Origin: Microscilla marina ATCC 23134
GTDB taxonomy: Bacteria; Bacteroidota; Bacteroidia; Cytophagales; Microscillaceae
DNA length: 64,000 bases
Assembly: GCF_000169175.1 (NCBI RefSeq)
Contig: NZ_AAWS01000006.1
Location: 7,192 to 71,191, forward strand
Reading direction: 5' to 3'
Each line of letters begins with the position of its first letter. The stretch's first letter is position 1. Below the pieces are notes generated by a model, which saw only the letters and a list, made by a program, of their open reading frames with translations, was not told the DNA's origin and did no database searches. Of the stretch, positions 33,980 through 62,833 are shown piece by piece. The position numbers were made by a program, and so were the translations under genes.

Positions 33980-34236
33980 ATACACCCTGTTCCATAGGCA
34001 ACTAATGACCATAAGTAACAGTAAGGACTTAAGACACTATCAAACACTCTACAAAATAGGCTGAAGTCCTCTATTTAGATATTTTTAAAATAAGTGTTGA
34101 AATTTAAAAGCTGACATAGCATATCCTCTGATTTGTAGTATAAGTAGAGTGATTTTGTACTGATAAAAGAACACTCAAAGCCCCACAGGACAGGCATACA
34201 CCTGACTGTGGGATGTTCCCAAAATTTTGCGCCAAA

Positions 34237-35673
34237 ATGAATTATAAGGAAGTTGTAGACAATAATCCCCTTCTTGAGACTGTGGCTAAGGTAGCCCAGC
34301 AAACCGGGCTTGAAACTTATGTGGTAGGTGGCTTTGTACGCGATTTGATACTTAAGCGCCCCTCGAAAGACATAGATATTGTATGTGTAGGCAGTGGTAT
34401 AGAACTGGCAAAGGCGGTAGCTGAAGAGCTACCTGATAAACCACAAGTAAATTATTTTAAGAATTTTGGTACGGCTCAAATCAAGGCTCAAGACTGGGAA
34501 CTGGAGTTTGTAGGAGCTCGGAAAGAGTCTTATCAACGCAATTCGCGCAAGCCAATTGTGGAAAATGGCACCCTCGAAGATGACCAAAACCGCCGAGATT
34601 TCACCATCAATGCTTTGGCCATTAGCCTACAGGCAAATAATTATGGTGAAGTGATAGACCCCTTTGGGGGAATAAAGCATCTGGAGCAGCGGGTAATTAA
34701 AACTCCGCTTGACCCAGACATTACTTTTTCTGATGATCCATTGCGAATGATGCGTGCCATGCGCTTTGCTACTCAGCTAAAGTTTGACATAGAACCCAAT
34801 ACGTTTGAGTCTATTCAAAAAAACAAAGAGCGTATCAAGATTGTATCGCAAGAGCGCATTACGGTAGAGCTCAATAAAATTGTAGCAGCCTCGGTGCCCT
34901 CTTATGGGTTTAAATTGTTGTTTTATGCTGAGTTGCTACACTTGATCTTTCCTGAAATGGTAGATCTGCATGGGGTCGATGTAGTAGAGGGCAAAGCACA
35001 CAAAGACAATTTTTTCCATACACTACAGGTACTTGACAATGTGGCCAAGGTATCGGACGACTTGTGGCTACGTTGGTCAGCCATTATGCATGACATTGCC
35101 AAACCTGTTACCAAACGCTTTGACAAACGGGCGGGATGGACTTTTCACGGGCATGAAGACAAAGGAGCTAAAATGGTTCCGCATATTTTTCGTAGGCTTA
35201 AGTTGCCCATGAACGACCGCATGCGTTTTGTGCAAAAATTAGTACGCTTGCACCTGCGCCCCATTCCATTGTTCCGCGACCACATCACCGATTCAGCCAT
35301 TCGCCGCTTATTGTTTGATGCTGGCGATGATATAGACGCGCTGATGATGCTTTGCCGGGCAGATATTACGTCTAAAAACCACGAGAAAGTAAAGCGTTTT
35401 CTCAAAAACTTTGATGTGGTAGAACGCAAGCTCAAAGAAATAGAAGAAAAAGACCGAATGCGCAACTTTCAACCGGTGATTACGGGTGAGGTAATTATGG
35501 AAGCGTTTGACCTGAAACCCAGCCGTGAGGTAGGACTGATAAAAACGGCAGTAAGAGAAGCGGTACTGGACGGTGAAATTCGTAATGAAATAGAAGAAGC
35601 TTTTGCTTTTATGGTAAAAAAAGGCAAAGAATATGGGCTTACCCCAGTAAAAACCATCAAAGAGTTGTCTTAG
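34237..35673 (+). CDS. cca: CCA tRNA nucleotidyltransferase / poly(A) polymerase family with an HD domain.
   Basis: [19 protein letters not shown] nucleotidyltransferase motif, [10 protein letters not shown], and a downstream HD domain (HDIAKP). Confidence 0.85.
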
Positions 35674-36002: not shown

Positions 36003-37238
36003 CTATTTATACCGCACAGGGTTATGCGCCCATCCTCCCCACGCCGACTCATCCCAAATATATTTTGCTTTCATTGCTTGAGCTTTTTCATACATAACCG
36101 CTGCTTTTTGGTCATGGCTATTGCCACGCATCAGCAGTGCCAAAGCGTAGCTTTCGTACAAAGCAATAGAATGAGGCAAATACTCAAATAGTTTTTGGTA
36201 GCAAATCTCTATGACCTCTCTGGGCAAACAATAGGTAATATCTATCTCAAGGGCTGCCAATAGGTCTATTGGGTCTTGAGATAGTAAGGTTTCTTTGATC
36301 AGCTCAGGTAAATAGGCAGCTCGTTGGGGGCGTTGGATGTATTGGCGAACAAAGCTTTCGAACCGATGACTGGTACGAAAAACCAAGGCTTGTGGGTGAT
36401 GTTCTAGTGACTCTTTATCTGGTATATCAGCTGTTTGCCCTGTCAAGTATTGGGCTTTCCTTTTTTCGAGGTTCCACCACCACGAGACGTGGGCTTGCTG
36501 CCCTTCAGCATAAGTTCTGATAATGGGTGAAGTAAGCAAACCGTGACAATAATCACTAGGGGTAGTGGTTTCGTCTAACAGTGTTTTGAGGCGTTGTTGG
36601 AGTTGCCAACTATAGGTAAAGTCAATATTGGCTCTGATAATTTCGCTTACCCTGAGTACTTGGTCTAAGTTGGTTTTGATACGTAAATGCATATCATATT
36701 GGCTATAAGCTTTTGCGTAGTTGGTTTGGTGCTGGTTGTCCCACAGGCGCAAGGCATACACTGCTTGGGTAGCTGCATTACGATAATTGTAATATTGAGG
36801 CTCGATGTATTGATTGATATAGGTTTGCAAAGTAGGAATCAAGCTTTCGTCGTTGTATAAAAACAAAGCAGATAGCCAAGCAGGTGAAAAAAAGATATGA
36901 TCGTTGGCGGTCAAAATAGCCTCTTTGACTTGGGGCAAAAACTGGCGCTTTTTTAATAAACCTGCCACCCAACATGCTGTTAGTAAAGCTTCGCGTTGGT
37001 AGGGTGCCCAAAGGTTTGTAGTTACATCTTGCTTACTAAATTTAAACAACGCCTCTATGTGTTCGTCGGGAATGGCAGCAAGTACGTAGCGGGTTCGCAG
37101 GATGAAATAGTCCCAATGTTGGTCGTAATGACTAAATACTTTGAGCCCAAATAAATGCCTTCGGAAGAATACAGAAAGATATGCATTAATCAAATCAGGA
37201 GGATAATATCGCAAGTTATCGCTGTTAGGGAGAAACAT
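36003..37238 (-). CDS. Hypothetical protein (411 aa), Trp/Tyr-rich, with no recognisable domain.
   Basis: Long ATG ORF between cca and the macrodomain gene. A degraded partial copy of its interior occurs at 38555-38750. Confidence 0.5.
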   Translation of the reverse strand: MFLPNSDNLRYYPPDLINAYLSVFFRRHLFGLKVFSHYDQHWDYFILRTRYVLAAIPDEHIEALFKFSKQDVTTNLWAPYQREALLTACWVAGLLKKRQFLPQVKEAILTANDHIFFSPAWLSALFLYNDESLIPTLQTYINQYIEPQYYNYRNAATQAVYALRLWDNQHQTNYAKAYSQYDMHLRIKTNLDQVLRVSEIIRANIDFTYSWQLQQRLKTLLDETTTPSDYCHGLLTSPIIRTYAEGQQAHVSWWWNLEKRKAQYLTGQTADIPDKESLEHHPQALVFRTSHRFESFVRQYIQRPQRAAYLPELIKETLLSQDPIDLLAALEIDITYCLPREVIEICYQKLFEYLPHSIALYESYALALLMRGNSHDQKAAVMYEKAQAMKAKYIWDESAWGGWAHNPVRYK

Positions 37239-37345: not shown

Positions 37346-37798
37346 ATGGCAATAACATTTAAAAAAGGGGGCTCTTTATTTGACGAAGATGTAGTGGCTA
37401 TAGTAAACCCAGTAAACACTGTGGGTGTGATGGGCAAAGGGCTGGCACTAGAGTTTAAAAAACGCTTTCCGACAAACTACGATTTATATCGGGCTGCTTG
37501 TAAAAACGACGAGGTACATACAGGACAAATGTTTGTAACCCATACGGACAACACTCCTGGCATCATTGTTAACTTTCCGACCAAACAACATTGGCGGGGA
37601 AAATCAAAATTAGCTTACGTGAGTGAGGGGCTAGATGATTTGGCAAAAGTGATAGCCGCCGAAAAGATGGCTTCTATTGCTTTGCCTCCTCTGGGCTGTG
37701 GGTATGGTGGCTTGGCCTGGACTGAGGTAAAGCGCTTGATTGAAGAAAAGCTGTCAGAAGTGGCCAATGATGTAGAGGTAATTGTCTTTGAACCTTAA
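37346..37798 (+). CDS. Standalone macrodomain protein of the DarG/TARG1-like clade (putative ADP-ribosyl hydrolase).
   Basis: IVNPVNTVGVMGKGLALEFKKRFP, NFPTKQHWRGKSKLAYV and PPLGCGYGGLAW match the DarG/TARG1 macrodomain signature (VNTVNCVGVMGKGIALQFK, NFPTK.HWR, PPLG.G.GGL). Confidence 0.75.
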   Translation: MAITFKKGGSLFDEDVVAIVNPVNTVGVMGKGLALEFKKRFPTNYDLYRAACKNDEVHTGQMFVTHTDNTPGIIVNFPTKQHWRGKSKLAYVSEGLDDLAKVIAAEKMASIALPPLGCGYGGLAWTEVKRLIEEKLSEVANDVEVIVFEP

Positions 37799-38133: not shown

Positions 38134-38415
38134 ATGAATACAGTAGAACAGATTATAGAAAAGATCAAGCAGATACGAAAAGAAAGAAAAATTAAACAAG
38201 AGGCTTTGGCGAAAGCTATAGGAGTAACTACTGGGCAATACTCGCACTATGAAACCCTCAAAACAGAAATCTCTTTGAGTAATTTTTTAAAAATACTTGC
38301 TTACTTTGAAATGTCAGTGAAAGACTTTTTTATGCTTGACTCCGCTACCATTTCCAAAGAAAACCTGGACGAGGTAATCCAAAGGCTAGAGTCCTTGCGA
38401 GATGGTAACGAATAG
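38134..38415 (+). CDS. XRE-family helix-turn-helix transcriptional regulator.
   Basis: IKQEALAKAIGVTTGQYSHYE is an HTH_3-like motif. It is preceded by a very AT-rich region. Confidence 0.6.
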   Translation: MNTVEQIIEKIKQIRKERKIKQEALAKAIGVTTGQYSHYETLKTEISLSNFLKILAYFEMSVKDFFMLDSATISKENLDEVIQRLESLRDGNE

Positions 38416-38440: not shown

Positions 38441-38750
38441 AGGATAACCTGTTTGATCATTCGTCGCTTGCCACTATTCCCTACCCCCTTCCTCATCCAA
38501 CACTTTCAGAAAAGTAGCAGGTTCGGGGCGTACCCGATAGTTGTCGATCGGGTCGGCTTCTTTGATTTGGGGCAAAAACTGGCGTTTTTTAATAACCCCG
38601 CCACCCAACATGCAGTAAACAATGCTTCGCGTATGTGATGCACTCAAGGGCTTGTGTTACTTTGCTTGCTAAATTTAAACAAAGCTTCTATGTGTTCGTC
38701 GGAAATAACAGAAGGCAGGAAACGGGTTTGAAGGACAAAGTCTTTCCATT
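38441..38750 (-). pseudogene. Mosaic of two gene fragments. 38478-38549 is a copy of the 3' end of gene 44361..45233. 38555-38750 is a degraded copy of an internal part of gene 36003..37238.
   Basis: Direct sequence similarity of 38478-38549 to 44378-44449, and of 38555-38750 to 36915-37105. There are no intact ORFs. Confidence 0.6.
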
Positions 38751-38858
38751 CATAAGTTGAAATGTAAACTAAACTAAACAAAAAATGGCTCCTAATAAAA
38801 AAGTAAGGAGCATAGAATAAATCTACACTCCTTACTTTTTGTTTACTGTCAATTGATA

Positions 38859-39188
38859 TTAGACAAAAATACTTTCTGATACTTCTTGCTTTTCAACTCT
38901 AAGCGCGATTGGTATGGCCAGTTTAATCCCATTTGCATCAAGTTGTCGCAACACCTCCATATTCACCTGGCTTGTGCCCAGGCTAACTTTATCATATTCT
39001 GACCCTACAGTTAGTTTATCCTCTGGCTTCCAAACTGCTATAGCAAACCAATAGTCAATATCGTGCGAATACTCTCCCAGCTTGTAAGTTGTCCAGGTTT
39101 TCTTCTCTGTTACATCGAATTTTTCAGGAATTTCTCTTAATAATTTCATTGCTATCTCAATCTGTTCGTGGGTAGTATCAAACCGCAA
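38859..39188 (-). CDS. C-terminal domain of the MscS-family channel. It lies in-frame downstream of the TGA at 39219-39221. The gene is either interrupted or read through.
   Basis: …DIDYWFAIAVWKPEDKL…VNMEVLRQLDANGIKLAIP aligns with the MscS C-terminal alpha/beta domain (INFVVRVWSNSGD…VLERIKREFDAAGISFPYP). It is the same frame as 39219..42797. Confidence 0.55.
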   Translation of the reverse strand: MRFDTTHEQIEIAMKLLREIPEKFDVTEKKTWTTYKLGEYSHDIDYWFAIAVWKPEDKLTVGSEYDKVSLGTSQVNMEVLRQLDANGIKLAIPIALRVEKQEVSESIFV

Positions 39189-39218
39189 ACGAATGATATT
39201 ATTAACAAAATAACGTGG

Positions 39219-42200
39219 TCAGGAGTCTTTATTTTTTATAGTGCTATTGATAAACACCCTGTTAGAAATGACATTTTTTTCGCCATAAAAATTGTTAATC
39301 ACAGAACTTCGTAAACCTATTTTATGTACCCAGCCATCTATGCCTGCCACTACTACTCTTTCTCCTACTTTAAAAGGTTTGGTAATAAGTAATGTAAGCC
39401 CTCCTAACAAATCGGCAAGAATATCTTTTAGCGCAAATGCCAAAGCAAAACCACCAATGCCTAAACCAGCAAGAATGGCTCCTGCATTAAAGCCTAATGT
39501 TTCGATAGAAAGTGTGATTGCAAATAGCCAAATCACTACAATAGTTAAAGCCTTTAGGAAGTAAACCATAGGCAAAAAATCTGCTTTTTTCAACCATTCC
39601 AGCTCATCTACTTTTTCTTCTCCCTCTCGTTTTCGTTTTTTAAAGAATCGGGAAAGAAGAACAATTGTCCTTGATTTTTTTTGTGTGAGCAATGCCTCTG
39701 TATACTTGCCCTCTTTGGCTTTTGTAGTGGTTGAGATAACACGAGCTACCATAGATTTGACTATTTTTATTAGGAACCAGGCGATCAAAACGATAAAAGA
39801 CAGTTTGATAATCATGTACAATAAAACTTTGTACCTTAATCGGTTTCTTGTGGATCTCAATGCCCCAATTTTTCCCTTCAAAAAAATCAGCCTAGCCAAA
39901 CTCGTTTGAGGTCTTTCTTCTTTATCCATCTTATCCAGCTCAGATTTGGGGTGACCAATAAGCTCAGCGATGCTCTTTTTAAGTACCACATTTTTGGCTT
40001 CCAATGCGCTAATAATGTCGGCATAAATATCTATTTCTTTCTCTATACCTCCAGGTGTTTGCCTTTCCTTAAAAAGAGTGATCCATTTTTTCGTCGCTGC
40101 AATTTGCACATGGTAATCAAACAATAAATCAGTGCTAATGCTAATGATAGAGTCCTGGCTACTTTGAGCAACTGGAGCTAACAAAGGAATATTTCGTCCT
40201 GTTTTTACCTGAAAAGCATTGATTAATTCATTGGCTTTTTCAGGTACCAGCCTTATTTTAATTTTTATCCATTCTTCTTCATAAGCAAGCTCAAGTTGTT
40301 CTAAATGTTTATTAAGAAATGTAAGTAAGACAGGAATAGAATCTTTTTCTGCGTATTCAAGCTTTGTTAATTTTTCTAATTTGTATATTTGGGTTTGCAG
40401 TATCCTTTGTTGTTGTTCTAACTGAATAAGTTCTACATAATTTGATGTGAGTATTTTAGAGTAGTTTTGAGTTTCAGAAGAGTTAATAAACCCAAGAAAA
40501 AATTCTTCAATGCCATTATCCGAATTCAGACGGTTAACTGCCAATTGTTCACTTACTTCTAAGGCAGTACCTTTCAGGGCTACTTTTTTATTGTCAAATT
40601 CCTGTTGTAATTCCTCTAATTGTTTATGAATGCTTCCTCGTTCACCAGTATTTTTTTGCATCTTGATAAACTGAGCCTGTAATTCGTTTTTCTCTTCTGT
40701 CTGACTCAGCCTCTTTAGCTCCCGCTGAATGCTTAGTTCCACCCCAAACAACTCATGGGTAAGCGATTCGAAATTGCTTATTCGTTCATATTTCAATGCT
40801 TCATTTACTTTAGCAGGTACTTCTTTGCGTTTTATTTTAGCCTGACTATACAGCTTTTTTATTTGTCCTGCATAAAGATTTTGTTGCAATAAAATATCGG
40901 TTATTTTTTCCCGCTTTACAAGTAACTGCCTGAGATACATCTGTAAAGAGTCCAATGATGTTTTCAGAGAATCTTTCAGACTTTTGCGTTTTTGAATAGT
41001 TTCTACATTTTGTGCCAGTAAGTTTTGATACTTTTCTCCTGCAATGTTTTTAAACAAACTTTTGCTTTTTGCCTTTTCTGCTTCGGGCTTCACCAACAAG
41101 CTATCCACTTTTTGTTCTTTTTTAGTAAATATCTGGACTTGTTTTCTTTGAGCTCGTTTGTGTATAAGAGCATATAGTTGAGAACGAATGCCATATTTAT
41201 CCTCCTGTGACTCTCTTTTAATAATTCTGAACAAAGGTCCTTTCAATATGTTCAATTCTCTTTTTATAGTTTTGGCAGTATCTTCTGCTCCTTTATATCT
41301 TTTGTAATAACTTTCTAGTCTCCGTTGTCTCATTGCCAAGCTATCTGTCAGTGTAGTAAAAGTATTGAGTAGCTTTTTTTTGCCAATGTTTTCAAGCTTT
41401 GCTTTCCATTTTTCTACTTTCATTAATGACTTGGCTGTTCTCTCAAGGCTATTTTTTTTGCTGGCAATCTCATCATAGTTCGCCATTAGCTTTTTTATTT
41501 CTTTAGCATTCAGTTCAATTTGTTTTTTTGCATTCTCGCTCAAAATTATTACTTCTGCATTTTGCTTAGTCAGGCTTTCTTCTTCTGCAATAATGGCTTT
41601 ATACCAGTTTGCTGACAGCATTGATTCAGGTTTTACTTCTCCTTTCTCTTCAAGGTTCTTAATGAGTTTTGCAATAAAAATCATCTTTGACAGATGCTCG
41701 CCAATTACTGCAGCTTCAGCAGTAAAAACTTCCTTACTAGCAATAAGCGCCTTCAACTGACTTTGCAATTCATTGGTGTTTTTTATTTGAACAGAGTCAT
41801 ACTTCAGCAAACTATTCAATGCCTGTATTGTCTTTTTTGTATCTTTCGACTCTTCTATACGCTTTGTTTTGGGAGGTTTTTTCAGCTCTATTTTTTTGTA
41901 CCTTACTTCTGCCTCTTTTCCCAAGGCCATTACTTTATTGTAGGCTACCAGGTAAGAACTCTTTATCCAATTTTTTTCTTCAGATAGTTCGGCAAAAGTT
42001 CTCAATAGTTTTTTAGGAGTCATTGCGGCATACTTGTTCTGTAATGCTACATTTTTTTGCTCGTTTGCCTGTTTTTCTTTGGCAGTAAACAGTTGTAACG
42101 CTACCTGTGCTATAGCTTTTTTATTTTCTGCAATATCGCTCCCAAGGCTTATAATCTCTTTTTTTACTACTTTATTGATTCCTTCAAATCGTTTTTCGAT

Positions 42201-42797
42201 TCCAGATAGCTTTTGTTGCTTTGCCTTAATATTTTCTTGCGACAATGATGCGGGCAATTTGGATGCTATTAGTGTACCATCATTTATTCGTAATTTTACC
42301 TCTAATAAATAAGGGGTTAGCAATATAAGATCATTCTTAAACCTATTGCTCGAAAACAGCACCTCATCTACTTGAGTAAGCAGGGTTTCTAAAGCTGTTT
42401 GTTTGCGTTCCAACAACAGTGCTTTTTGCTTGTAAGCATTTAAAAGGCGAGCAATATGTTTGGCTTTAAGCACCGAAATTTCAAGGGGAGTCAATTCTTT
42501 GGCAGGTTTTCGAAAGGTAGAATCAGGCAGGCGAAAATTGCTCAGTTGTCTGTCACTTTCCTGAATAATTTTCTCATCGCTATAAAATTTCCGTAGCTCT
42601 TTTCGATAACTAAACTGAGAAGTACTAAACATTTTATCTGCTTGCCTAAGCAATGCCTCATTACTCAAATTGTGTAAGTTACCAGTGGTTTGTGCCCAGG
42701 TACTATTGTAAACAAACAACAATGCTATACAAAATAGTTGATGAATAAATACTCTTTTTATTATAATTACTTGATAATTTGAAAAAAGTCTTTTCAT
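39219..42797 (-). CDS. Large MscS-family mechanosensitive channel (MscK/KefA-like). It has a roughly 950-aa N-terminal coiled-coil/periplasmic region and is terminated by an in-frame TGA before its conserved C-terminal domain.
   Basis: MscS TM3/beta domain: GAILAGLGIGGFALAFALKDILADLLGGLTLLITKPFKVGERVVVAGIDGWV. N-terminal signal/TM, then a long K/E-rich coiled coil. AT-rich codon usage. Confidence 0.65.
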   Translation of the reverse strand: MKRLFSNYQVIIIKRVFIHQLFCIALLFVYNSTWAQTTGNLHNLSNEALLRQADKMFSTSQFSYRKELRKFYSDEKIIQESDRQLSNFRLPDSTFRKPAKELTPLEISVLKAKHIARLLNAYKQKALLLERKQTALETLLTQVDEVLFSSNRFKNDLILLTPYLLEVKLRINDGTLIASKLPASLSQENIKAKQQKLSGIEKRFEGINKVVKKEIISLGSDIAENKKAIAQVALQLFTAKEKQANEQKNVALQNKYAAMTPKKLLRTFAELSEEKNWIKSSYLVAYNKVMALGKEAEVRYKKIELKKPPKTKRIEESKDTKKTIQALNSLLKYDSVQIKNTNELQSQLKALIASKEVFTAEAAVIGEHLSKMIFIAKLIKNLEEKGEVKPESMLSANWYKAIIAEEESLTKQNAEVIILSENAKKQIELNAKEIKKLMANYDEIASKKNSLERTAKSLMKVEKWKAKLENIGKKKLLNTFTTLTDSLAMRQRRLESYYKRYKGAEDTAKTIKRELNILKGPLFRIIKRESQEDKYGIRSQLYALIHKRAQRKQVQIFTKKEQKVDSLLVKPEAEKAKSKSLFKNIAGEKYQNLLAQNVETIQKRKSLKDSLKTSLDSLQMYLRQLLVKREKITDILLQQNLYAGQIKKLYSQAKIKRKEVPAKVNEALKYERISNFESLTHELFGVELSIQRELKRLSQTEEKNELQAQFIKMQKNTGERGSIHKQLEELQQEFDNKKVALKGTALEVSEQLAVNRLNSDNGIEEFFLGFINSSETQNYSKILTSNYVELIQLEQQQRILQTQIYKLEKLTKLEYAEKDSIPVLLTFLNKHLEQLELAYEEEWIKIKIRLVPEKANELINAFQVKTGRNIPLLAPVAQSSQDSIISISTDLLFDYHVQIAATKKWITLFKERQTPGGIEKEIDIYADIISALEAKNVVLKKSIAELIGHPKSELDKMDKEERPQTSLARLIFLKGKIGALRSTRNRLRYKVLLYMIIKLSFIVLIAWFLIKIVKSMVARVISTTTKAKEGKYTEALLTQKKSRTIVLLSRFFKKRKREGEEKVDELEWLKKADFLPMVYFLKALTIVVIWLFAITLSIETLGFNAGAILAGLGIGGFALAFALKDILADLLGGLTLLITKPFKVGERVVVAGIDGWVHKIGLRSSVINNFYGEKNVISNRVFINSTIKNKDS

Positions 42798-43325
42798 AAC
42801 TGATCAAAGGGTGAATAATTGTTTAATAATGATTAATTACATTTCAATGGTATAGTGATTTGTCAGCTTTATCTAAGCCTCATTTTTTTTCAAGTATCTT
42901 AGTTTGGGCTGCCCTTATTGTTGGTTGATATCAAGATTTTAGATAAACATGGATCAGGGTTCCTTGAGAGGTAGACGTAGGGAAGTTTTTCCGTTTAATT
43001 TCAGCATAGGGAATATTTTCAGTATTTCTGCAAAATCGGTTATATTGTGTGCCACTAGGTGGGTTACTATTGCCAATCTTTCAGATAGTGTGCATGCTCG
43101 CCCAAATAAATGCTTATACTATGATTGGCAAGGCTTGCCATTTTCTTGCAAACAGCCAGTACCTCTTTATTTTCCTGCCTACACTCAAGTTTCCCAACGA
43201 AAACCACCCAGTTGATGTAATTTTTCAGAAAAGAGAATTTATAACCTATTTCAATCTTTTAATGATGTCCATAGGTTAACCATCGTCCTGCTCTCAAAAT
43301 ATTTTTTGACTAGCCGCACTAACAA

Positions 43326-44021
43326 TCAGTCCCTCTTGTAATATAAAAAAGCTTCATGCTTGACTATATCACCACTCATCAACCTTCTGTGATTATATAT
43401 TTTACTTTCACAAAGAGACATTTCCTGTTCGAGCCAGCCCAATATGCGGCTTCTCCTGTAGTCATCTTTATCTGTCAACAGGTTAAATACTATGTAAGCG
43501 TTTTCATTTAAAAGGTTTACATAGCTTTTAAGGTCTTCAAGCTCTATATGATTTGCTCCTCCACTAATTGTAATACAATTAAAATCATACTTTGTAAGGT
43601 TTTTATTTTTTATTACATTTTTTACAATAAAAGTATCATCATAAATTTCAGGGTAATCACGATTAAGTGCATCGATGGCTTCTGGCAGGATATCGACTCC
43701 TACCAAAGATTTAATATCCACATTGCTGTTTTCTTTTAATGCTTTGCCCATTAAACCTGAACCACAGGCAAGATCAAGTACATTAAGTTCTTTATGAGTT
43801 TTCGCAGCATACTTTAGCAGCAAACAAGACAATTCTTCATACGCTTTATAATCAAGTAAATCGCAATATAATCTACTATACAATTTTGGGTATGAATAAA
43901 TACTGGCATAATCCCAGGTTTTAAACACTTTTTCTGCGCCATTGGCAAAATCTACTTTAAAGGTTTCGCTTCCTTGGCTTGTGCCTTGTAAGGGAGTAAT
44001 TTTAATAATTGATTCAGTCAT
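43326..44021 (-). CDS. Class I SAM-dependent methyltransferase.
   Basis: VLDLACGSGLMG (motif I) and VDILPEAI (motif II). 231 aa. Confidence 0.6.
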   Translation of the reverse strand: MTESIIKITPLQGTSQGSETFKVDFANGAEKVFKTWDYASIYSYPKLYSRLYCDLLDYKAYEELSCLLLKYAAKTHKELNVLDLACGSGLMGKALKENSNVDIKSLVGVDILPEAIDALNRDYPEIYDDTFIVKNVIKNKNLTKYDFNCITISGGANHIELEDLKSYVNLLNENAYIVFNLLTDKDDYRRSRILGWLEQEMSLCESKIYNHRRLMSGDIVKHEAFLYYKRD

Positions 44022-44360
44022 TTTTTGAAGTTATTTGCATGAAAGTACCATCATTTACAGTCAGTAAAATCATTTAAACCCAGCCTCATAAAATATTTTA
44101 TAGAACCCTTAAAGGTTTCAAATATCTGTTTTTAAACAGGGCATATTCTATGTAATGAAAAATACATCAACTGGTCATTTTATTACATCAGCAAGTAAAT
44201 TACTTTAATTTACTAAAAAAACCAGTATAAAAACACATATTGAATTAAAATCACGTAATTATACCTATTAAAACACAAAAAAATACTGAGCGTATTTGGG
44301 ATTTATGAAGAAGACAGAGGAAATGCTTTATTAGGAGGAAAAAAAGGAGGTTTCACACCA

Positions 44361-45233
44361 TCAGGAACGATGTTCAACACCCTCTTCCTCATCCAACACT
44401 TTCAGAAAAGTAGCAGGTTCGGGGCGCACCCGATAGTTATCGGTCAGGTCGGCAAAAATGATCTTTCCTTCAGAATTGGTTATAATCACGGTGGGTAAAA
44501 CTGTGTTGGAATCGTAACCCAATATTTCAAAGCCTTTAGGAATGCCGTTTTCTGAGATAATTTCTAATTGGCGAGCTGCCCGGCTTTTTACATCTACCAG
44601 AAAGTGAAAAGGAACTTTCATTTTTTCTGCCAATTGGCGTGAATACCCGTGAGGTTGGGGGCTTACCAAGGCTACCTTTACCCCTCTTTGGTTGAGTTCT
44701 TTGTATTGTTGGGCTACTTCTTTGATTTGTGCCATACACAATGGGCACCAATTGCCCCGATAAAATAGCCATAGAGTGGGGTGTCCGTCAAACTCTTTGC
44801 TTTGTACTTGTTCGCCTGCCTCGTTTTCTAACACAAAACTAGGCAATGGTTTGCCCACCGCAAGCAACTCTTTATTGCGTAAGGTAAAACGTGAATACCA
44901 ATAAATATAAATGAGCCAACCCAAAGTGTTGCTTACTGCAAATACTATGGCTGCATAAACTGGGGGAGTTTGGGTGGTGTAAGCCGTTACTATCGCCCAC
45001 CCAGTGCTTACCAACATCAAGGCTGTGTATTTGGGCATAGCAGCTTTGGTACGGGCAAAAGGACGAAAAATGAATAACCCCGCAAACATAAGGGCTATAG
45101 CCCACCCGCCCAAGGCTACCCCCAACCAAGGCAAACTAAAATCTAACAAAAGCTGACGAACAGCATAAATACCTATGACCATTCCATAAACAGGAAAAGC
45201 AGTAATAAATATCGATTTGGCTACATTTACCAT
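44361..45233 (-). CDS. Membrane-anchored thioredoxin-fold (redoxin/AhpC-TSA-like) protein.
   Basis: About 130 aa of N-terminal TM helices, then a C-terminal GNWCPLCMAQ (CxxC) motif in a thioredoxin-like region. Confidence 0.6.
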   Translation of the reverse strand: MVNVAKSIFITAFPVYGMVIGIYAVRQLLLDFSLPWLGVALGGWAIALMFAGLFIFRPFARTKAAMPKYTALMLVSTGWAIVTAYTTQTPPVYAAIVFAVSNTLGWLIYIYWYSRFTLRNKELLAVGKPLPSFVLENEAGEQVQSKEFDGHPTLWLFYRGNWCPLCMAQIKEVAQQYKELNQRGVKVALVSPQPHGYSRQLAEKMKVPFHFLVDVKSRAARQLEIISENGIPKGFEILGYDSNTVLPTVIITNSEGKIIFADLTDNYRVRPEPATFLKVLDEEEGVEHRS

Positions 45234-45445
45234 GACTTGATGAATGTGTTTTATATTTTACAACTTACAAAGCATTCTCGGTTTATTGTGAAGCCTGCAT
45301 TTAAATTTTTAAGTTTACAACCGCTTTTTTTTACAAAAAAGTTCTGTCATACAATAACGAGTTTGTTTAAAGTCAACCAAAAAGACATGCTTTAAAACCC
45401 AAAGCTGTTCGCTAAACAAACTCCAAGACTTTGAAAATACTTAAT

Positions 45446-46588
45446 ATGAAGAAATTAGTTTTTACTTTGTTATTTCTGGGCACTTATGCCTTACTTTCTG
45501 CTCAACCTTCTGCCTATAAAGCCCAGCCGTTTGCAGATGATGTTCCATTGACTACTCCGTCTATGCTGGATGCTGACTACATAGCCCGTGTAATGGCAGC
45601 ACTACCGCTGCCTGAAGCTGCTCCCGAAAACATAAAGCAGTTGTCCAAAGTTGCCTCGGTTCAAAATCATTATAAGGAGTTTACTATTGCCTGGCAAAAA
45701 TTAGAGAGTAAAAAACTGTCACGCTTACGCAAATGGCGGGACAGTGAAATTACTGACTTGCATAAAAAGCAAACCAATTTGTTCTACCCTTTTGCTGGTC
45801 CCGATTTTCTGAATGCTTACCTGCTTTTTCCTACCTGCGACAATTATTTGTTGTTTGGACTAGAGAAAATGGGCACATTGCCTACAATGGCGCAGCTGAG
45901 GGGTAATTATTTGTTTCGCTTACGCAAATCGTTGTCTATTTTGATGAAGCGCAATTACTTCATTACCCGCGACATGATCAACAACCTTAATAGCAATGTA
46001 AAAGGAGTGTTGCCTTTGATCGCAGTATTTATGGCGCGCACCGACAATAAGATATTGAGTATTCAGAAGGTGTATGTACAAAAAAACGGCAAACCTAAAT
46101 TTGTGGCTTTTAACGACAATAAGTGGCATCCAGGGATCAAAGGGGTAACAATTGAGTTTAAAAATAAGAACCGTGATTTGCCTCAACGCATGTATTACTT
46201 TGGGACCAACTTTGTAAATACCGCCATGTATACCAAAAAAAACCTGGTTAATTTTATTACTAACTTTAAAAACAAGATGACTTTTACCAAGTCGGCTTCT
46301 TACTTGTTGCACGGTCACAACTTTAGTATTATTCGTAATATTATCCTCAATCAGACATCGGCTTCGGTACAAGACGATACTGGAGTGCCCTACCGCTATT
46401 TTAAAAACAGTTGGAGTGTAAAACTATACGGTAAGTATGCCCGCCCGGTGCGTGACTTTAACTATGGGTTTCAGACTGACTTAAACAGGCTATTTAAGAC
46501 AGATAAAACCGTTAAGCCCATTGACTTTACTTTTGGTTATCATTGGTGGACAGATAAATCAAGTATTTTGGTTTTCAGGAAAAAATAG
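45446..46588 (+). CDS. Hypothetical secreted protein (signal peptide MKKLVFTLLFLGTYALLSAQ).
   Basis: The ORF has a signal peptide and no recognised domain. Confidence 0.5.
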   Translation: MKKLVFTLLFLGTYALLSAQPSAYKAQPFADDVPLTTPSMLDADYIARVMAALPLPEAAPENIKQLSKVASVQNHYKEFTIAWQKLESKKLSRLRKWRDSEITDLHKKQTNLFYPFAGPDFLNAYLLFPTCDNYLLFGLEKMGTLPTMAQLRGNYLFRLRKSLSILMKRNYFITRDMINNLNSNVKGVLPLIAVFMARTDNKILSIQKVYVQKNGKPKFVAFNDNKWHPGIKGVTIEFKNKNRDLPQRMYYFGTNFVNTAMYTKKNLVNFITNFKNKMTFTKSASYLLHGHNFSIIRNIILNQTSASVQDDTGVPYRYFKNSWSVKLYGKYARPVRDFNYGFQTDLNRLFKTDKTVKPIDFTFGYHWWTDKSSILVFRKK

Positions 46589-46794
46589 CTATTCCAGAGG
46601 GCAGTGATTCAGGCAAAAACACTGTCCTTTTTGGGTCATTTGGCGGGTTCGGTTTACTTTCTTTTGCTTTATATTCAAAACCACTCTTCAGAGCGTTTAC
46701 TTTCAGACAAATAAGCTCACCTTCAGTTGCACAAATCAATAAAAGGAATATATTTGTAAATGAGATGGTTATAACTAAAAAATGAACTATTGAT

Positions 46795-48081
46795 ATGGTT
46801 GAAGATAACCCTACAAACCCCGATTCAGGAGACAAAAAACCTACCCACGATCCGTTTGATATGCTCAAAGGAGACACTCCTACCGGCAGCACTCCACCTC
46901 CAGAAAAAGAAGAAAATAAAGAGGAAGACAACACAGGAAACAAACAAGAAACTTCTTCCACAACGGGTAGCGACCCGTTTGATATGGTAGAAAAACACCC
47001 TACCTCCGGAACAACACCCTCTACCCCTACTGTCAATACTGGTGGCGACCCGTTTGATATGGTAGAAAAGCAACCTACTTCTGGTACCACTCCCCCCATT
47101 ACCAATACTGCTGACCCGCTCAACACAGCAGGGCAATCTACGGGTTCTACATCTCAGCCTGACTTGCCTAAACCATCAGAAGACCCTTTAACTGGGCAAT
47201 CGGGTACTGCGGGTTCTGCGTCTCAACCTAATTTGCCACAAACTCCCCTGACGGGGCAGTCAGGTACAACTACTGGTTCTACCTCTCAACCTGATTTGTC
47301 TTCTACACCACAAAACCTGTCTACTCCTCCCCCTCCTAATACATCAATACCTACACCTACTGCTACCTCTGTACCCAACCCGCAGCCCATACCCAATATT
47401 GCTACGCCACCACCCAATGCCCACAAAGCAGCAGAGCGGGAAGCGTATCAGTCTAAAATAGATATGAATGCAGTATTGGCTGCTGCCAATAAGGTAAACC
47501 AAATGCCTAAACTACAGGCCACTTCTATGGAAAAATTAGATGAAGCACTATTTACCAAACGGCATAGAACCAAAGTAGGCCCTGAAGAAAAAGAGGAGGT
47601 AGAACAAAAGCTTCAGTATTTGGTAAATAAGATTAAAAAAGACTTGGCTTTTTATAACAATAAAGAGAAAAAGTCGGGTAAATGGACATTGATATTCAGT
47701 GTATTGTCTTCTTTATTGGCGGCTTCTGTAACCGTATTACTAGGTTTGAATATTACAGACTTTATGCGTAAACATAATTTTGACTGGTATATCAATACTA
47801 TAGCCTTGATTATTAGTGCATTTATTTCGGTAATTGGAGTTTTGCAAAACTTTACAGACTCCAAACCTTTATGGGTTAAATATACCGATACCTCCAACAA
47901 GTATCAACAGTTGCTAGACAATATTGAGTATATGCAACTGGCAGGTAATTATATCACACTAGATGATGTAAATCAGATAAAACTTGCCTATAACCGAATA
48001 AAAGATGGTACAAACAACTATATCATTCAGGTAAGAAGCCAAGATGATGGTACTGGAAACTCGTCACTTCTCAGGTCGTAA
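46795..48081 (+). CDS. Repeat protein. The N-terminal Pro/Thr/Ser-rich low-complexity region carries three DPFDM(V/L)EK repeats. The C-terminal region is two-TM plus helical and may be SLATT/DUF4231-like.
   Basis: DPFDMLKGD, DPFDMVEKHPTSGTTP and DPFDMVEKQPTSGTTPP repeats. The C-terminus has WTLIFSVLSSLLAASVTVLLGL and YINTIALIISAFISVIGVL TM helices followed by an amphipathic tail. Confidence 0.5.
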   Translation: MVEDNPTNPDSGDKKPTHDPFDMLKGDTPTGSTPPPEKEENKEEDNTGNKQETSSTTGSDPFDMVEKHPTSGTTPSTPTVNTGGDPFDMVEKQPTSGTTPPITNTADPLNTAGQSTGSTSQPDLPKPSEDPLTGQSGTAGSASQPNLPQTPLTGQSGTTTGSTSQPDLSSTPQNLSTPPPPNTSIPTPTATSVPNPQPIPNIATPPPNAHKAAEREAYQSKIDMNAVLAAANKVNQMPKLQATSMEKLDEALFTKRHRTKVGPEEKEEVEQKLQYLVNKIKKDLAFYNNKEKKSGKWTLIFSVLSSLLAASVTVLLGLNITDFMRKHNFDWYINTIALIISAFISVIGVLQNFTDSKPLWVKYTDTSNKYQQLLDNIEYMQLAGNYITLDDVNQIKLAYNRIKDGTNNYIIQVRSQDDGTGNSSLLRS

Positions 48082-48149
48082 CTCCTCTTATGGTGATTAC
48101 AAAAAGGCTGTCTCATCATAGATTTTAGGAAAATGTTATTCTAAATACT

Positions 48150-48184
48150 ATTCATACCTGCCAGGTTTTTGAAGCCTGGCAGGT
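48150..48184. terminator. Bidirectional terminator hairpin between convergent genes.
   Basis: Perfect 13-bp stem catacctgccagg / cctggcaggtatg with a 9-nt loop (tttttgaag). Confidence 0.6.
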
Positions 48185-48212
48185 ATGAAATTTCTTAAAA
48201 ACCGTTTTTACT

Positions 48213-49022
48213 TTACTTTTGCCAATGTTGCTGTATAATCTCCAGCATTTGTGAATGTACTTCTCCACTGGCTACAATTTCTCCCTTGAACACACTATCG
48301 TCCCCTCCACTAAAGTTGGTCACGGTTCCGCCTGCTTCTTGTACAAGACAAGCACCAGCGGCTACATCCCAAGGCTTTAGATTGTACTCAAAAAAACCTT
48401 CAAAACGCCCACAAGCTACATACGCCAGGTCTACTGCTGCTGACCCCATACGACGCAAGCCATGGGTATTTTGCATAAACCCATTGAGTATCTCCAGGTA
48501 ATTGCGCATTTGGTCAAAGTTATAATAAGGAAAACCTGTAGCAAGCAAGCTATCGCTTAGGTCTTGGGTGCTTGATACCCTAATTTTGGCATTGTCCATA
48601 TAGGCTCCTCCATCTTTCCAGGCATAAAAACACTCATTTCGGTTTATTTCATAGACTACCCCTGTTATCACTTCGGTGTTTTGCATAAGTGCTATACTGA
48701 TAGCAAAAATTGGCAATCCGTGCAAAAAGTTAGTGGTACCATCCAACGGATCTACTACCCAATGGTATTCTTTACCCGACAATTGGTGGTTGGCTGAGTC
48801 CTCTTCAGATACAAACCCAGCTTCGGGTAGTACCTTGGTCAATGCTTTGATAAGCATTTCTTCTGATCGTTTGTCTACATAAGACACCAAGTCGTTTTTA
48901 CCTTTGTACTCAATCATTGAGCGGTCAAAGTTTCTCAGTTCAGTTCTTATAAAATATCCTACATCTTTGGTGATTTGAATCACTTGCTCAACCAATGGTT
49001 GTAAGTCTATTGTACTACTCAT
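48213..49022 (-). CDS. suhB: Inositol monophosphatase family protein.
   Basis: WVVDPLDGTTNFLHGLP is the IMPase motif, and WDVAAG lies in the C-terminus. 269 aa. Confidence 0.85.
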   Translation of the reverse strand: MSSTIDLQPLVEQVIQITKDVGYFIRTELRNFDRSMIEYKGKNDLVSYVDKRSEEMLIKALTKVLPEAGFVSEEDSANHQLSGKEYHWVVDPLDGTTNFLHGLPIFAISIALMQNTEVITGVVYEINRNECFYAWKDGGAYMDNAKIRVSSTQDLSDSLLATGFPYYNFDQMRNYLEILNGFMQNTHGLRRMGSAAVDLAYVACGRFEGFFEYNLKPWDVAAGACLVQEAGGTVTNFSGGDDSVFKGEIVASGEVHSQMLEIIQQHWQK

Positions 49023-49041
49023 GTTTTAAATGTTTATTTTT

Positions 49042-50685: not shown

Positions 50686-50792
50686 GTTTTATTTGCATTA
50701 AAGTAACTTAAGTAGGGCATTTATTACCATACAGATACTCATCTGCAAAGGTACACGTTTTCAAAAGGTTTGGGTAAAAAAGTGGGGTAAAG

Positions 50793-51500
50793 TTAGATAA
50801 GGTCAAATGCCTGAGCAAAGCGAATCAAATCCACAAAGCGCCTAATTTCTAACTTACGCTTCAGGTTTTTGCGGTGTTGCTCGACAGTAGCCTTAGAGAT
50901 AAACAACTGTTCACCTATTTCGGTATTTTGATAACCTAAAGCCAATAAGGGAACTATTTCTAGCTCGCGTGGGGTCAAGCTGGCAAATTTATGATAGTTC
51001 ATTTTCATGTAATTTGTTTCTTCCAATGCCCTTACCATTTTATTGGTAACCTTGCCCACTTTTGCCAAAGGGATAGTAATACCAGCCAAACACGGTTGTT
51101 TATTATAAATACGTGAGGTAGTATACAATGGCTCAAGGCCTTTCACTGGGTCAATTGCCGCCCTTTGTACAAATCCGACGGCTTTACGTTTATGCTTGAG
51201 CAATACGTCTTTGATAAGTATGATCGACTTATTATAATCATCAGGATTCACATAACGCTTAAACAGGTCAGTAGGGGCATTTTGTACATCTTGCAAAGTA
51301 AGCTCAAAGCGCTCTAGGTGTTGCTTACTCAAAAACTTAGGAGCAAAAGTATGGATGTCATTCAAGTGCAGTAAAGCCCCTTGAATCAACTCACAGGCTT
51401 CCTCAAACGAATACCCGTTTTTAGTAATTCTTTGTTCTATCAAAAAGGTTTGACGTTCAAGAGCAACTAGTATTTCTTTTTCAGTAATAATTTGCTTCAT
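50793..51500 (-). CDS. LuxR-type HTH regulator, tandem paralog 5 of 5.
   Basis: C-terminus ASLTPRELEIVPLLALGYQNTEIGEQLFISKATVEQHRKNLKRKLEIRRFVDLIRFAQAFDLI (GerE/LuxR HTH). N-terminus MKQIITEKEILVALERQTFLIEQ. Confidence 0.75.
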   Translation of the reverse strand: MKQIITEKEILVALERQTFLIEQRITKNGYSFEEACELIQGALLHLNDIHTFAPKFLSKQHLERFELTLQDVQNAPTDLFKRYVNPDDYNKSIILIKDVLLKHKRKAVGFVQRAAIDPVKGLEPLYTTSRIYNKQPCLAGITIPLAKVGKVTNKMVRALEETNYMKMNYHKFASLTPRELEIVPLLALGYQNTEIGEQLFISKATVEQHRKNLKRKLEIRRFVDLIRFAQAFDLI

Positions 51501-51504
51501 TTTT

Positions 51505-52212: not shown

Positions 52213-52213
52213 G

Positions 52214-52921: not shown

Positions 52922-52922
52922 G

Positions 52923-53639: not shown

Positions 53640-53640
53640 T

Positions 53641-62071: not shown

Positions 62072-62101
62072 CCCTGGCAAATCAAGTCAGGGCTTTTTTA
62101 T
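62072..62101 (+). terminator. Rho-independent terminator.
   Basis: gccctgg-caaatcaagt-cagggc hairpin followed by TTTTTTAT. Confidence 0.6.
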
Positions 62102-62830: not shown

Positions 62831-62833
62831 TGA

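What the first reader, a model, noticed from the sequence alone, without database searches (positions are those of the whole stretch)
38441..44450. Roughly 5.8-kb low-GC segment bracketed by a 70-bp direct repeat of a gene 3' end, with chimeric gene debris at one junction
Positions 38478-38549 repeat 44378-44449, which is the last roughly 24 codons plus the stop region of the redoxin-membrane gene 44361..45233, in the same orientation. The segment between them carries an XRE regulator just outside it, the interrupted MscS channel and a SAM methyltransferase, all AT-rich. Immediately abutting the left repeat is a degraded copy (38555-38750) of an internal piece of gene 36003..37238. A duplicated 3'-end target bracketing foreign-looking cargo is the footprint that site-specific integrative elements leave. 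No integrase is present now, so this looks like an old, decayed island or a recombination scar.
Basis: seen in the sequence. Interest (0 to 1): 0.55.

Follow-up and report, generated by a model that had tools for sequence, protein, structure and literature searches.

The report
Recombination scar displacing a gene's end
A 5.8-kb block of AT-rich DNA was added at the tail of a membrane peroxiredoxin gene in the ancestor of Microscilla marina, most likely by ordinary and illegitimate recombination rather than by an integrase. It left a 75-bp duplicate of the gene's end and a fused gene fragment, which makes it a tidy but ordinary rearrangement scar.

Summary
Positions 38483-38557 and 44379-44453 are a 75-nt direct repeat (93% identical, E 5e-26), equal to codons 261-285 of redoxin gene 44361..45233(-). 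A fragment of a geneA-like gene (38558-38799, codons 24-107) abuts the left copy.

The join at 38557/38558 is an in-frame fusion of geneA codon 107 to redoxin codon 261. It lies at a patch of microhomology (14/22; P about 3e-4).

The same junction and repeat occur in an independent assembly of a sister species, Microscilla sp. N, so the event is old. That species has since lost the MscS gene and most of the geneA fragment.

More distant relatives lack the insert. In one, redoxin is followed by an R-M pair and the orthologous XRE, so the left repeat is the original gene end, displaced by 5.9 kb. Every lineage sampled has a different 3' neighbour of redoxin. A 19-kb inversion breakpoint lies beside the insert.

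I found no integrase, tRNA, or phage or plasmid match. The geneA fragment is not the resident allele type, and the cargo has low GC3.

Best reading: a chromosomal fragment from a related lineage was added, using the redoxin tail as homology plus one illegitimate joint. This is Campbell-type or HFIR-like integration, not a decayed integrase island.

Interest is modest.

The parts
44361..45233 (-). Live membrane peroxiredoxin-like gene ('redoxin', 290 aa; N-terminal TM region plus AhpC/TSA domain)
   Evidence: Pfam AhpC-TSA 9e-24 and Redoxin 4e-17. Orthologues at 92% (sp. N), 77-78%, 71% and 60-62% identity.
44379..44453 (-). Right copy of the 75-nt direct repeat (codons 261-285 of the live gene)
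44361..44378 (-). New C-terminal tail and stop (VEHRS*) that replaced the ancestral stop; start of the inserted DNA
   Evidence: Orthologues and both displaced copies stop 2-4 codons after LDEEG/LDKEG. Only the live genes of M. marina and sp. N carry the ...RS* tail.
44022..44360 (.). AT-rich spacer (27% GC) between redoxin and the MTase
   Evidence: Conserved at 90% in sp. N, where a 232-nt MITE-like element sits at its redoxin end.
43326..44021 (-). Class I SAM-dependent methyltransferase (231 aa), intact cargo gene
   Evidence: Pfam Methyltransf_25/23. 223/231 aa identical in sp. N. GC3 28%. Only sub-threshold NCBIfam hits, to small-molecule, protein and rRNA MTases. Not a recognisable DNA MTase.
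42798..43325 (.). Spacer between MTase and MscS; homology with sp. N stops at 43258
   Evidence: No ORF has a family hit.
38859..42797 (-). Giant MscS-family channel gene (about 1312 codons) cut by one in-frame TGA at 39219-39221 (Arg in the orthologue)
   Evidence: Pfam MS_channel_2nd 8.5e-14. Full-length homologues are 1277-1312 aa. A single tblastx HSP runs across the stop, and conservation is equal before (71.4%) and after (70.6%) it. The gene is absent in sp. N.
38793..38845 (-). Hairpin plus T-run (terminator-like) after MscS, directly abutting the geneA fragment
   Evidence: Inverted repeat I3, 24-nt arms, 83% complementary; sequence.
38558..38799 (-). gA5': pseudogenised fragment of a geneA-like gene (codons about 24-107)
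   Evidence: One stop codon and one frameshift. Closest at protein level to the N-terminus of sp. N geneA (77.6%), not to the resident geneA (64.7%).
38557..38558 (-). Illegitimate joint: geneA nt 320 (codon 106.7) fused in frame to redoxin nt 782 (codon 260.7)
   Evidence: Alignment A1. 14/22 identity between the parental sequences at the joint, which 334 of 1,035,180 position pairs reach. Same joint in sp. N.
38483..38557 (-). Left copy of the repeat: the displaced, original 3' end of redoxin (codons 261-285)
   Evidence: Its position next to XRE matches the redoxin-(R-M)-XRE order of relative L086.
38474..38482 (-). Tail (GRE) and stop codon (38474-38476) that follow the displaced copy, at about the position where orthologues stop
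38134..38415 (+). XRE/HTH_3 regulator (93 aa), convergent with the displaced redoxin end; probably an orphan R-M control (C) protein
   Evidence: Pfam HTH_3 2e-13. PADLOC Control_protein 6e-8. A 61%-identical orthologue lies upstream of a C5 DNA methylase and a HaeII-like endonuclease in L086.
37346..37798 (+). Macro-domain protein (DarG-like macro domain only); conserved partner of geneA; last gene before the synteny break
   Evidence: The macro-geneA-PolyA_pol block is conserved in L081, L083 and L084.
36003..37238 (-). geneA: orphan 411-aa all-helical protein; full-length relative of the fragment at the joint
   Evidence: No Pfam, NCBIfam, PHROG or PADLOC hit. The family has 6 members among 5.8 billion proteins. 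AF2 model is helical with pLDDT 57.
44385..63416 (.). Context: a 19-kb segment that is inverted in relatives L081/L088 (and L084); its left breakpoint holds the whole scar
   Evidence: L081 and L084 join 63416 to 37805. L088 joins 44385 to 63533.

Best explanation
In the common ancestor of Microscilla marina and Microscilla sp. N, about 5.8 kb of DNA was added inside the last 30 codons of the redoxin gene. The added piece, read on the gene strand, is: new redoxin tail, spacer, SAM-methyltransferase, giant MscS-family channel gene, then a 5' fragment of a geneA-like gene.

One joint used the roughly 75 bp of redoxin codons 261-285 as homology, so that stretch is now present twice. The other joint is illegitimate: geneA codon 107 fused to redoxin codon 261 at a microhomology patch.

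The simplest single mechanism has three steps. A linear chromosomal fragment from a related lineage had its ends inside geneA and inside redoxin. Its ends were joined, making the chimeric joint. The resulting circle then entered by a single crossover in the redoxin tail (Campbell-type). This added the cargo instead of replacing the resident macro-XRE cassette.

The live gene kept function with a new 5-codon tail. Its original end, still beside its old neighbour XRE, was displaced 5.9 kb and decays as a pseudogene piece. No integrase was involved.

Later decay: a CGA-to-TGA nonsense mutation in MscS (M. marina), and deletion of MscS plus most of the geneA fragment (sp. N).

Shown: the anatomy, the age, the absence in other lineages, and the ancestral position of the left copy. 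Inferred: the foreign origin of the fragment and the circle/single-crossover route.
For: 1. Repeat and chimeric joint. The joint is in frame and lies where geneA and redoxin share 14/22 identity (P about 3e-4 over all position pairs).

2. The same joint, repeat, new tail and MTase occur in an independent assembly of a sister species with about 92% nt identity.

3. Relatives lack the insert. L086 has redoxin, HaeII-like REase, C5 MTase, then an XRE orthologue (61% aa), so the left repeat sits at the ancestral position. L085, L088, L002 and L092 each have a different 3' neighbour while the 5' neighbour is conserved.

4. The geneA fragment is not the resident type.
- It is 77.6% identical to the sp. 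N geneA N-terminus against 64.7% to M. marina geneA, with 10 against 2 discriminating sites.
- At nt level it shares 13 sites with L081/L084 (8 of them also with L082) that window and L083 both lack, against 2 sites shared only with window and L083.
- The M. marina N-terminal type looks vertical, because synonymous divergence from L083 is the same (dS about 1.5) as in the rest of the gene.

5. Cargo GC3 is 28-31% against 41-44% in the neighbours. The closest MscS orthologue (72%) sits in an unrelated context in L089.

6. No integrase, tRNA or known RNA; no phage match, and only a 26%-identity MTase match on a Streptomyces plasmid record.

7. Precedent: single crossover of circular molecules with a short homologous segment leaves 109-950-bp duplications of the target in E. 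coli (PMC3240628). Additive insertion that shifts the old gene end or module downstream has been proposed for T6SS and Rhs loci (PMC5361080).
Against: - The donor arrangement (redoxin-MTase-MscS-geneA on one strand) was not found in any sampled genome. MscS homologues lie in other contexts, and MTase relatives were not found at all.
- The geneA fragment starts at codon about 24, directly after the MscS terminator, so an extra deletion or a pre-existing scar in the donor is needed.
- The case for foreign origin rests on 68 aa of a decayed fragment (sign test P = 0.04) and on composition.
- The sp. N geneA nucleotide sequence could not be retrieved, so gene conversion into sp. N geneA is an inference.
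- A 75-bp homology is short for RecA-dependent crossover.
- Contigs from one sample were assumed to come from one organism.
Confidence: 0.55

Rival explanations
1. A purely local event. One version is unequal illegitimate exchange between geneA codon 107 and redoxin codon 261 in an ancestor ordered geneA-macro-XRE-redoxin. This gave a 1.66-kb tandem duplication, after which the redundant macro'-XRE' copy was replaced by MTase-MscS. The other version is a single replicative template-switching event (MMBIR/FoSTeS-like). It copied the MTase-MscS locus, then 250 nt of the nearby geneA, then re-entered redoxin 75 nt behind the point of departure.
For: - The order of the pieces is exactly that of a tandem-duplication join point: end of unit fused to start of unit, same strand. 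The full geneA lies only 1.3 kb from the joint.
- There is microhomology at the joint.
- Both ends of the geneA fragment are junctions, as expected for a short templated patch.
- The MscS gene is 72% identical to the Org-E orthologue, within the range of vertically inherited neighbours.
Against: - The fragment is not of the resident (M. marina/L083) type but of a third type shared with the sp. N N-terminus.
- No trace of macro' or XRE' lies between the repeats in either species.
- Cargo GC3 is well below that of the neighbours.
- The 75-nt repeat is 93% identical while the geneA pieces are 74-79% identical. This needs either gene conversion or different sources.
Confidence: 0.27
2. A decayed site-specific integrative island. 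An element with an integrase integrated into the 3' end of redoxin, supplying a substitute gene end. The 75-bp repeats are attL and attR, and the integrase was later lost.
For: - A direct repeat of a gene's 3' end brackets low-GC cargo that other lineages lack.
- The 3' flank of this gene differs in every lineage and holds an R-M module in one of them, as integration hotspots do.
Against: - No integrase, excisionase or transposase, or remnant of one, in two species.
- The element-side flank of the left repeat is an in-frame fragment of a neighbouring chromosomal gene, joined at microhomology.
- The repeat ends before the present stop codon.
- Lineages with other cargo have no second repeat.
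- The cargo has no phage match and only a 26%-identity MTase match on a Streptomyces plasmid record, and was not seen as a unit elsewhere.
- The cargo genes are housekeeping-like.
Confidence: 0.08
3. Chance similarity, a dispersed repeat motif, or an assembly artefact.
For: None beyond the draft status of the assemblies.
Against: - E 5e-26, and only two copies in 64 kb.
- The repeat is conserved coding sequence in all orthologues.
- The same structure occurs in an independently assembled sister genome.
Confidence: 0.01

Closest known systems
Campbell-type single-crossover integration of a circular molecule through a short homologous segment, and homology-facilitated illegitimate recombination (HFIR). 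HFIR was described by de Vries & Wackernagel 2002, Prudhomme et al. 2002 and Meier & Wackernagel 2003, as cited in PMC5361080. E. coli data are in PMC3240628.
   Same: There is one homologous joint and one illegitimate joint at microhomology. Non-homologous DNA is added beside a conserved anchor gene. The homologous segment is duplicated on both sides of the insert; 109-950-bp duplications were seen experimentally. No dedicated recombinase is needed.
   Different: This is a natural, ancient event inferred from sequence. The homology is only about 75 bp. The donor and the route of DNA entry are unknown. Competence or conjugation in Microscilla was not examined.
Displacement of old 3' ends or modules in Rhs, CDI and T6SS effector-immunity loci ('orphan' 3' regions; PMC5361080).
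   Same: An incoming module is joined to the conserved 5' part of a resident gene, and the former 3' end is pushed downstream, where it persists as an orphan.
   Different: The target here is an ordinary peroxiredoxin-like gene, not a polymorphic toxin. Only 25 codons are displaced. There is a single event rather than an array. There is no evidence that the displaced piece has a function.
Genomic islands integrated by tyrosine or serine recombinases into the 3' ends of tRNA or protein genes.
   Same: Direct repeats of the target gene's 3' end flank compositionally atypical cargo, and the target gene stays intact.
   Different: There is no recombinase gene or remnant. The repeat abuts a chromosomal gene fragment. 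The element was not seen elsewhere.
Tandem-duplication join points and microhomology-mediated template switching (MMBIR/FoSTeS). This comparison rests on my own knowledge of the literature, not on a paper read here.
   Same: A chimeric in-frame join of two same-strand genes at microhomology; short templated patches; a small duplication at the re-entry point.
   Different: The two 'copies' share nothing except the 75 bp. The geneA patch is not of the resident allele type.

Membership tests
Site-specific integrative island (integrase-mediated, attL/attR) | Integrase or recombinase gene, or a remnant, inside the element, usually next to one att site | tested here: not met
   All ORFs and spacers between the repeats in M. 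marina and sp. N were checked against Pfam and PHROGs, with ORF lists. Only MTase, MscS and the geneA fragment are present.
Site-specific integrative island (integrase-mediated, attL/attR) | Direct repeats (att core) at both ends | tested here: met
   75-nt repeat, 93% identical, with a 43-nt identical core.
Site-specific integrative island (integrase-mediated, attL/attR) | The element supplies a substitute 3' end, so the repeat runs through the end of the target gene | tested here: inconclusive
   The repeat stops 6 codons before the present stop, at about the position of the ancestral stop. The live gene has a new 5-codon tail.
Site-specific integrative island (integrase-mediated, attL/attR) | Empty site in relatives, and the same element or att core used elsewhere | tested here: not met
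   Relatives lack the insert, but none shows a second repeat. The unit has no phage match, only a 26%-identity MTase match on one Streptomyces plasmid record, and no MTase relative in the metagenome collection.
HFIR / Campbell-type single-crossover addition of a chromosomal fragment | One joint within homology, the other illegitimate at microhomology | tested here: met
   The 75-bp homology is duplicated. The geneA codon 107 | redoxin codon 261 joint shows 14/22 parental identity, P about 3e-4.
HFIR / Campbell-type single-crossover addition of a chromosomal fragment | Inserted DNA comes from another genome | tested here: inconclusive
   For: GC3 of 28-31% against 41-44%, and the non-resident type of the geneA fragment. 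Against: no donor arrangement was found.
HFIR / Campbell-type single-crossover addition of a chromosomal fragment | A DNA-uptake or transfer route and RecA dependence | not testable with these tools
   Needs experiments in Microscilla.
Tandem duplication | Join point fuses the end of the unit to its start, on the same strand | tested here: met
   On the gene strand, geneA 5' part then redoxin 3' part, with full redoxin upstream and full geneA downstream.
Tandem duplication | The two units are copies of each other | tested here: not met
   Apart from the 75 bp and the geneA piece, nothing is shared. There is no macro or XRE remnant in the right unit.

The most novel reading that the evidence does not exclude
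The interval between geneA/macro and the 3' end of redoxin may be a recombinase-independent cassette-exchange hotspot in Microscillaceae. Lineages carry alternative cargo there: R-M with a C-protein, MTase-MscS, LRR genes, or an inversion joint. The conserved flanking genes would act as homology arms, and occasional additive (not replacement) integration would leave displaced gene ends, as in Rhs and T6SS arrays but at an ordinary gene. The DarG-like macro protein, PARP, the orphan C-protein and the orphan geneA would then mark a defence-island-like neighbourhood.
Probability: 0.15. Interest if true: 0.5.

Novelty: new member of a known kind. Interest (0 to 1): 0.3.

Why it matters
This is a clean natural example of a genomic islet that looks like an integrase footprint (a duplicated gene end around AT-rich cargo) but arose without a site-specific recombinase. 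It warns against reading every '3'-end direct repeat plus low GC' as a decayed integrative element. It also shows that a single comparison with a sister genome, plus a few outgroups, can date and polarise such a scar.

It also marks the 3' flank of this redoxin gene as a rearrangement hotspot in Microscillaceae: six different neighbours and a 19-kb inversion. The biological consequences appear small. The target gene keeps its function, one cargo gene (MTase) is maintained, and the other (MscS) is dying.

Tried and rejected
1. Is the 422/423-aa gene that follows MscS in L090 and L091 a distant geneA relative, which would make MscS-geneA a native pair? No: blastp E = 6.9 and hhalign probability 0.1%.

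2. Is the MTase upstream of MscS in L090 an orthologue of the window MTase? No detectable similarity.

3. Do MITE-like elements with the TIR CTAGTGCATTGGGTACTAAG sit at the inversion breakpoints or at the joint? No. The only matches are at 33900 and 35708.

4. Was M. marina geneA's 5' end recently imported from an L083-like lineage, which would have made the fragment the ancestral resident type? Rejected, because synonymous divergence from L083 in that part (dS 1.5) equals the rest of the gene.

5. The 145 nt that sp. N has between the MTase and its 25-nt geneA remnant has no match anywhere in the fetched data.

6. Metagenome scan for MTase relatives: none. Metagenome scan for redoxin: only a 60% relative, with yet another neighbour.

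7. Exact-protein look-ups of the window redoxin and of the sp. N geneA (P0002) returned nothing.

8. The AF2 model of geneA was of too low confidence (pLDDT 57) for a fold search.

9. A terminator-like hairpin created by substitutions inside the left repeat (38532-38553) is not conserved in sp. N, so I did not treat it as functional.
Full report
OBSERVATION

The repeat is real. Positions 38483-38557 and 44379-44453 are 70/75 identical, in the same orientation, 5896 nt apart. blastn gives E 5e-26, and there is no third copy in the 64-kb window.

The right copy is codons 261-285 of the 290-codon gene 44361..45233(-). That gene encodes a membrane protein with an AhpC/TSA (redoxin) domain. The repeat does not reach the present stop codon: the last five codons (VEHRS) and the stop are unique.

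Directly abutting the left copy, 38558-38799 is a decayed copy of codons about 24-107 of gene 36003..37238(-). I call this gene geneA; it encodes 411 aa and has no family hit. The match is 79% nt over 184 nt (E 2e-37) and E 7e-18 by tblastn.

Read on the minus strand, the joint is an in-frame fusion...KKRQFLPQIKEA|DPIDNYRVRPEPATFLKVLDEEGGRE*. GeneA nt 320 is joined to redoxin nt 782. Around the joint the two parental genes share 14 of 22 bases. Only 334 of 1,035,180 position pairs between the two genes reach that level.

The segment between the repeats (38558-44378, 5821 bp) is 34.7% GC against 41% for the window. Besides the geneA fragment it holds:
- a terminator-like hairpin (38793-38845);
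- a giant MscS-family gene (38859-42797);
- a 528-nt spacer;
- a class I SAM methyltransferase (43326-44021);
- a 27%-GC spacer.

The MscS gene is cut by one in-frame TGA at 39219-39221, where the closest orthologue has Arg. Conservation after the stop (70.6%) equals that before it (71.4%), so the lesion is recent or a sequencing error.

SOURCE AND SISTER SPECIES

GeneA and the MscS protein are 100% identical to Microscilla marina proteins on a 295-kb contig.

The closest other genome is 'uncultured Microscilla sp. isolate N' (L001), about 92% identical in nucleotides. It carries the same structure:
- the live redoxin with the same kind of new tail (ECRS*);
- the same spacer and MTase (223/231 aa identical);
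- a second copy of redoxin codons 261-285;
- the orthologous XRE gene.

The chimeric joint is also there (...RFLPQVKG|TDLTNNYRVRPEPATFLKVLDEEGAVE*), but only about 25 nt of the geneA piece remain. The MscS gene is absent. Between the MTase and the remnant lie 145 nt with no match anywhere.

The event therefore predates the split of the two species. The M. marina state, with the longer geneA fragment, is closer to the original. Sp. N later deleted MscS.

In sp. N the two repeat copies share a substitution (CCAACAAC) that neither M. marina copy has. This hints at gene conversion between the copies.

MORE DISTANT RELATIVES

The geneA family is tiny: 6 proteins among 5.8 billion. Contexts were recovered for four members and for three redoxin orthologues. 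I treat contigs from the same sample as one organism; this is an inference.

L086 (redoxin 71% identical). Redoxin is followed by a convergent HaeII-like endonuclease, a C5 DNA methylase and a 93-aa XRE protein. The XRE protein is 61% identical to the window's XRE. The window XRE also hits the PADLOC 'Control_protein' model.

Redoxin-XRE adjacency is therefore ancestral. It follows that the left repeat, 58 nt from the XRE stop, is the original end of the gene. Consistent with this, both displaced copies stop 2-3 codons after LDEEG, as all other orthologues do. Only the live genes of the two Microscilla species have the longer tail.

Other 3' neighbours of redoxin:
- L088: the gene that in the window begins at 63533.
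- L085: a 92-aa gene and an LRR gene.
- L092: about 1.5 kb with no long ORF, then an unrelated convergent 540-aa ORF.
- L002: the contig ends about 460 nt after redoxin, and that stretch matches nothing in the window.

In all of these the divergent 5' neighbour (the 385-aa gene) is conserved. None has a second copy of the redoxin end, an MTase or an MscS gene nearby.

The 3' end of this gene is thus a synteny break in every lineage sampled.

INVERSION

L081 and L084 join window position 63416 (CDP-alcohol phosphatidyltransferase) to 37805 (macro). L088 joins 44385 (redoxin end) to 63533. Relative to those genomes, M. marina has the 19-kb segment 44385-63416 inverted. The whole scar lies at its left junction.

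The direction of change cannot be decided. The inversion joint (between macro and XRE) is distinct from the repeat joint.

WHERE DID THE PIECES COME FROM?

The closest MscS orthologue (72%, 1312 aa) lies in an unrelated context in L089, with composition matching its surroundings. Two homologues at 56-58% lie in yet other contexts.

The protein that follows MscS in L090 and L091 is not related to geneA. No MTase relatives were found.

The geneA fragment gives the most information.
- Over 68 aa it is 77.6% identical to the sp. N geneA (P0002), 71-72% to P0004 and P0005, and only 64.7% to M. marina geneA and P0003. At sites where P0001 and P0002 differ, it agrees with P0002 at 10 and with P0001 at 2.
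- In nucleotides it shares 13 sites with L081/L084 (8 of them also with L082) that the window gene and L083 both lack, against 2 shared only with the window gene and L083.
- The two Microscilla geneA proteins are mosaic relative to each other. They are 58-65% identical over the first 80 columns and 82-100% identical from about column 140.
- Synonymous divergence between M. marina and L083 is saturated and equal in the N-terminal part (dS 1.5) and the rest (dS 1.5). The M. marina N-terminal type therefore looks vertically inherited.

The fragment and the sp. N N-terminus thus belong to a third sequence type. The simplest reading is that the fragment came in from another lineage together with the low-GC3 cargo. 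In sp. N it would later have converted the 5' part of the resident geneA. Both steps are inferences.

MECHANISM

The topology is that of a unit whose end has been joined to its start and then added in tandem. On the gene strand it reads: full redoxin, cargo, geneA 5' piece | redoxin 3' piece, XRE, macro, full geneA.

Three routes give this topology.

(a) Circle and single crossover. A linear fragment from a relative, with its ends in geneA and in redoxin, is circularised by an illegitimate, microhomology-assisted end join. It then integrates by a single crossover in the redoxin tail.

(b) Local unequal illegitimate exchange (tandem duplication), followed by replacement of the redundant copy.

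(c) A single replicative template-switching event.

Route (a) explains in one step the duplicated homology, the chimeric joint, the non-resident geneA type, the composition and the lack of a recombinase. Experiments in E. coli show that such single crossovers leave 109-950-bp duplications of the target (PMC3240628). Additive insertion that pushes the former gene end or module downstream has been proposed for T6SS and Rhs loci (PMC5361080).

The weak points of (a) are the unseen donor arrangement, the start of the geneA piece at codon 24 directly after the MscS terminator, and the short homology.

Routes (b) and (c) fit the nearness of geneA. They do not fit the allele type, or the absence of any macro or XRE remnant between the repeats.

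An integrase-driven island is the least supported reading.
- No recombinase or remnant in two species.
- No tRNA or known RNA.
- No phage match, and only a 26%-identity MTase match on a Streptomyces plasmid record.
- The flank of the left repeat is a chromosomal gene fragment.
- No repeat in lineages with other cargo.

VERDICT

Its 'integrative element' reading is not supported, and its alternative 'recombination scar' is.

The feature is an old, recombinase-free insertion at a rearrangement hotspot. It is a new instance of a known kind of event and of modest interest.

Noticed in passing
window 32411-37798 (PARP about 32411-33673; PolyA_pol/CCA-like 34213..35673; geneA 36003..37238; macro 37346..37798): This is a conserved block of PARP (WGR plus catalytic domain), nucleotidyltransferase, orphan geneA and a macro protein. 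The 150-aa macro protein matches only the macro half of the DarG antitoxin (NCBIfam 5.6e-66, 223 bits against a cutoff of 250; PADLOC DarG 2e-68). GeneA is divergent from it, is restricted to 6 proteins in Microscilla-like bacteria, and is predicted all-helical (pLDDT 57). It may be an ADP-ribosylation module; the role of geneA is unknown.
   Followed up: partly
window 44385-63416; joints at 37800-38130 and 63416-63533: This 19-kb segment is inverted relative to the L081/L088 and L084 genomes. Breakpoints are reused among three arrangements (M. marina, L081/L088, L082/L086). No inverted repeats or MITEs were seen at the joints.
   Followed up: partly
L001 10868-11100; window 35708-35935 and 33900: A MITE-like element with terminal inverted repeats CTAGTGCATTGGGTACTAAG. 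In sp. N a 232-nt copy sits exactly at the redoxin stop codon and supplies the TAG stop; it is absent there in M. marina. The window has one copy between PolyA_pol and geneA, and a further TIR match at 33900.
   Followed up: partly
window 38134..38415; L086 10877-13263: The XRE gene is probably an orphan R-M control (C) protein. Its orthologue in L086 heads an operon with a C5 DNA methylase and a HaeII-like endonuclease, both of which are missing in M. marina and sp. N.
   Followed up: partly
protein P0002 (sp. N geneA) against window 36003..37238: The geneA proteins of the two sister species are mosaic relative to each other: 58-65% identical in the first 80 aa and 82-100% identical from about aa 140. 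The switch lies in the most conserved stretch of the protein, which also contains the chimeric joint (codon 107).
   Followed up: partly
window 39219-39221: A single CGA(Arg)-to-TGA change truncates the 1312-codon MscS-family gene by 119 codons. There is no extra decay downstream of the stop, so this is a very recent pseudogene or a sequencing error.
   Followed up: yes
window 43326..44021: The cargo methyltransferase gives a partial hit to the PADLOC model mad2 (methylation-associated defence system; E 1.3e-7, MTase-fold region only). NCBIfam hits are all far below their cutoffs. Its substrate is unknown.
   Followed up: no
window 50790-54390: There are several tandem paralogous GerE/LuxR-type regulator genes: five mutually similar stretches in the window against two genes in L081 and L082. 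This was seen only as repeated tblastx and blastn hits.
   Followed up: no
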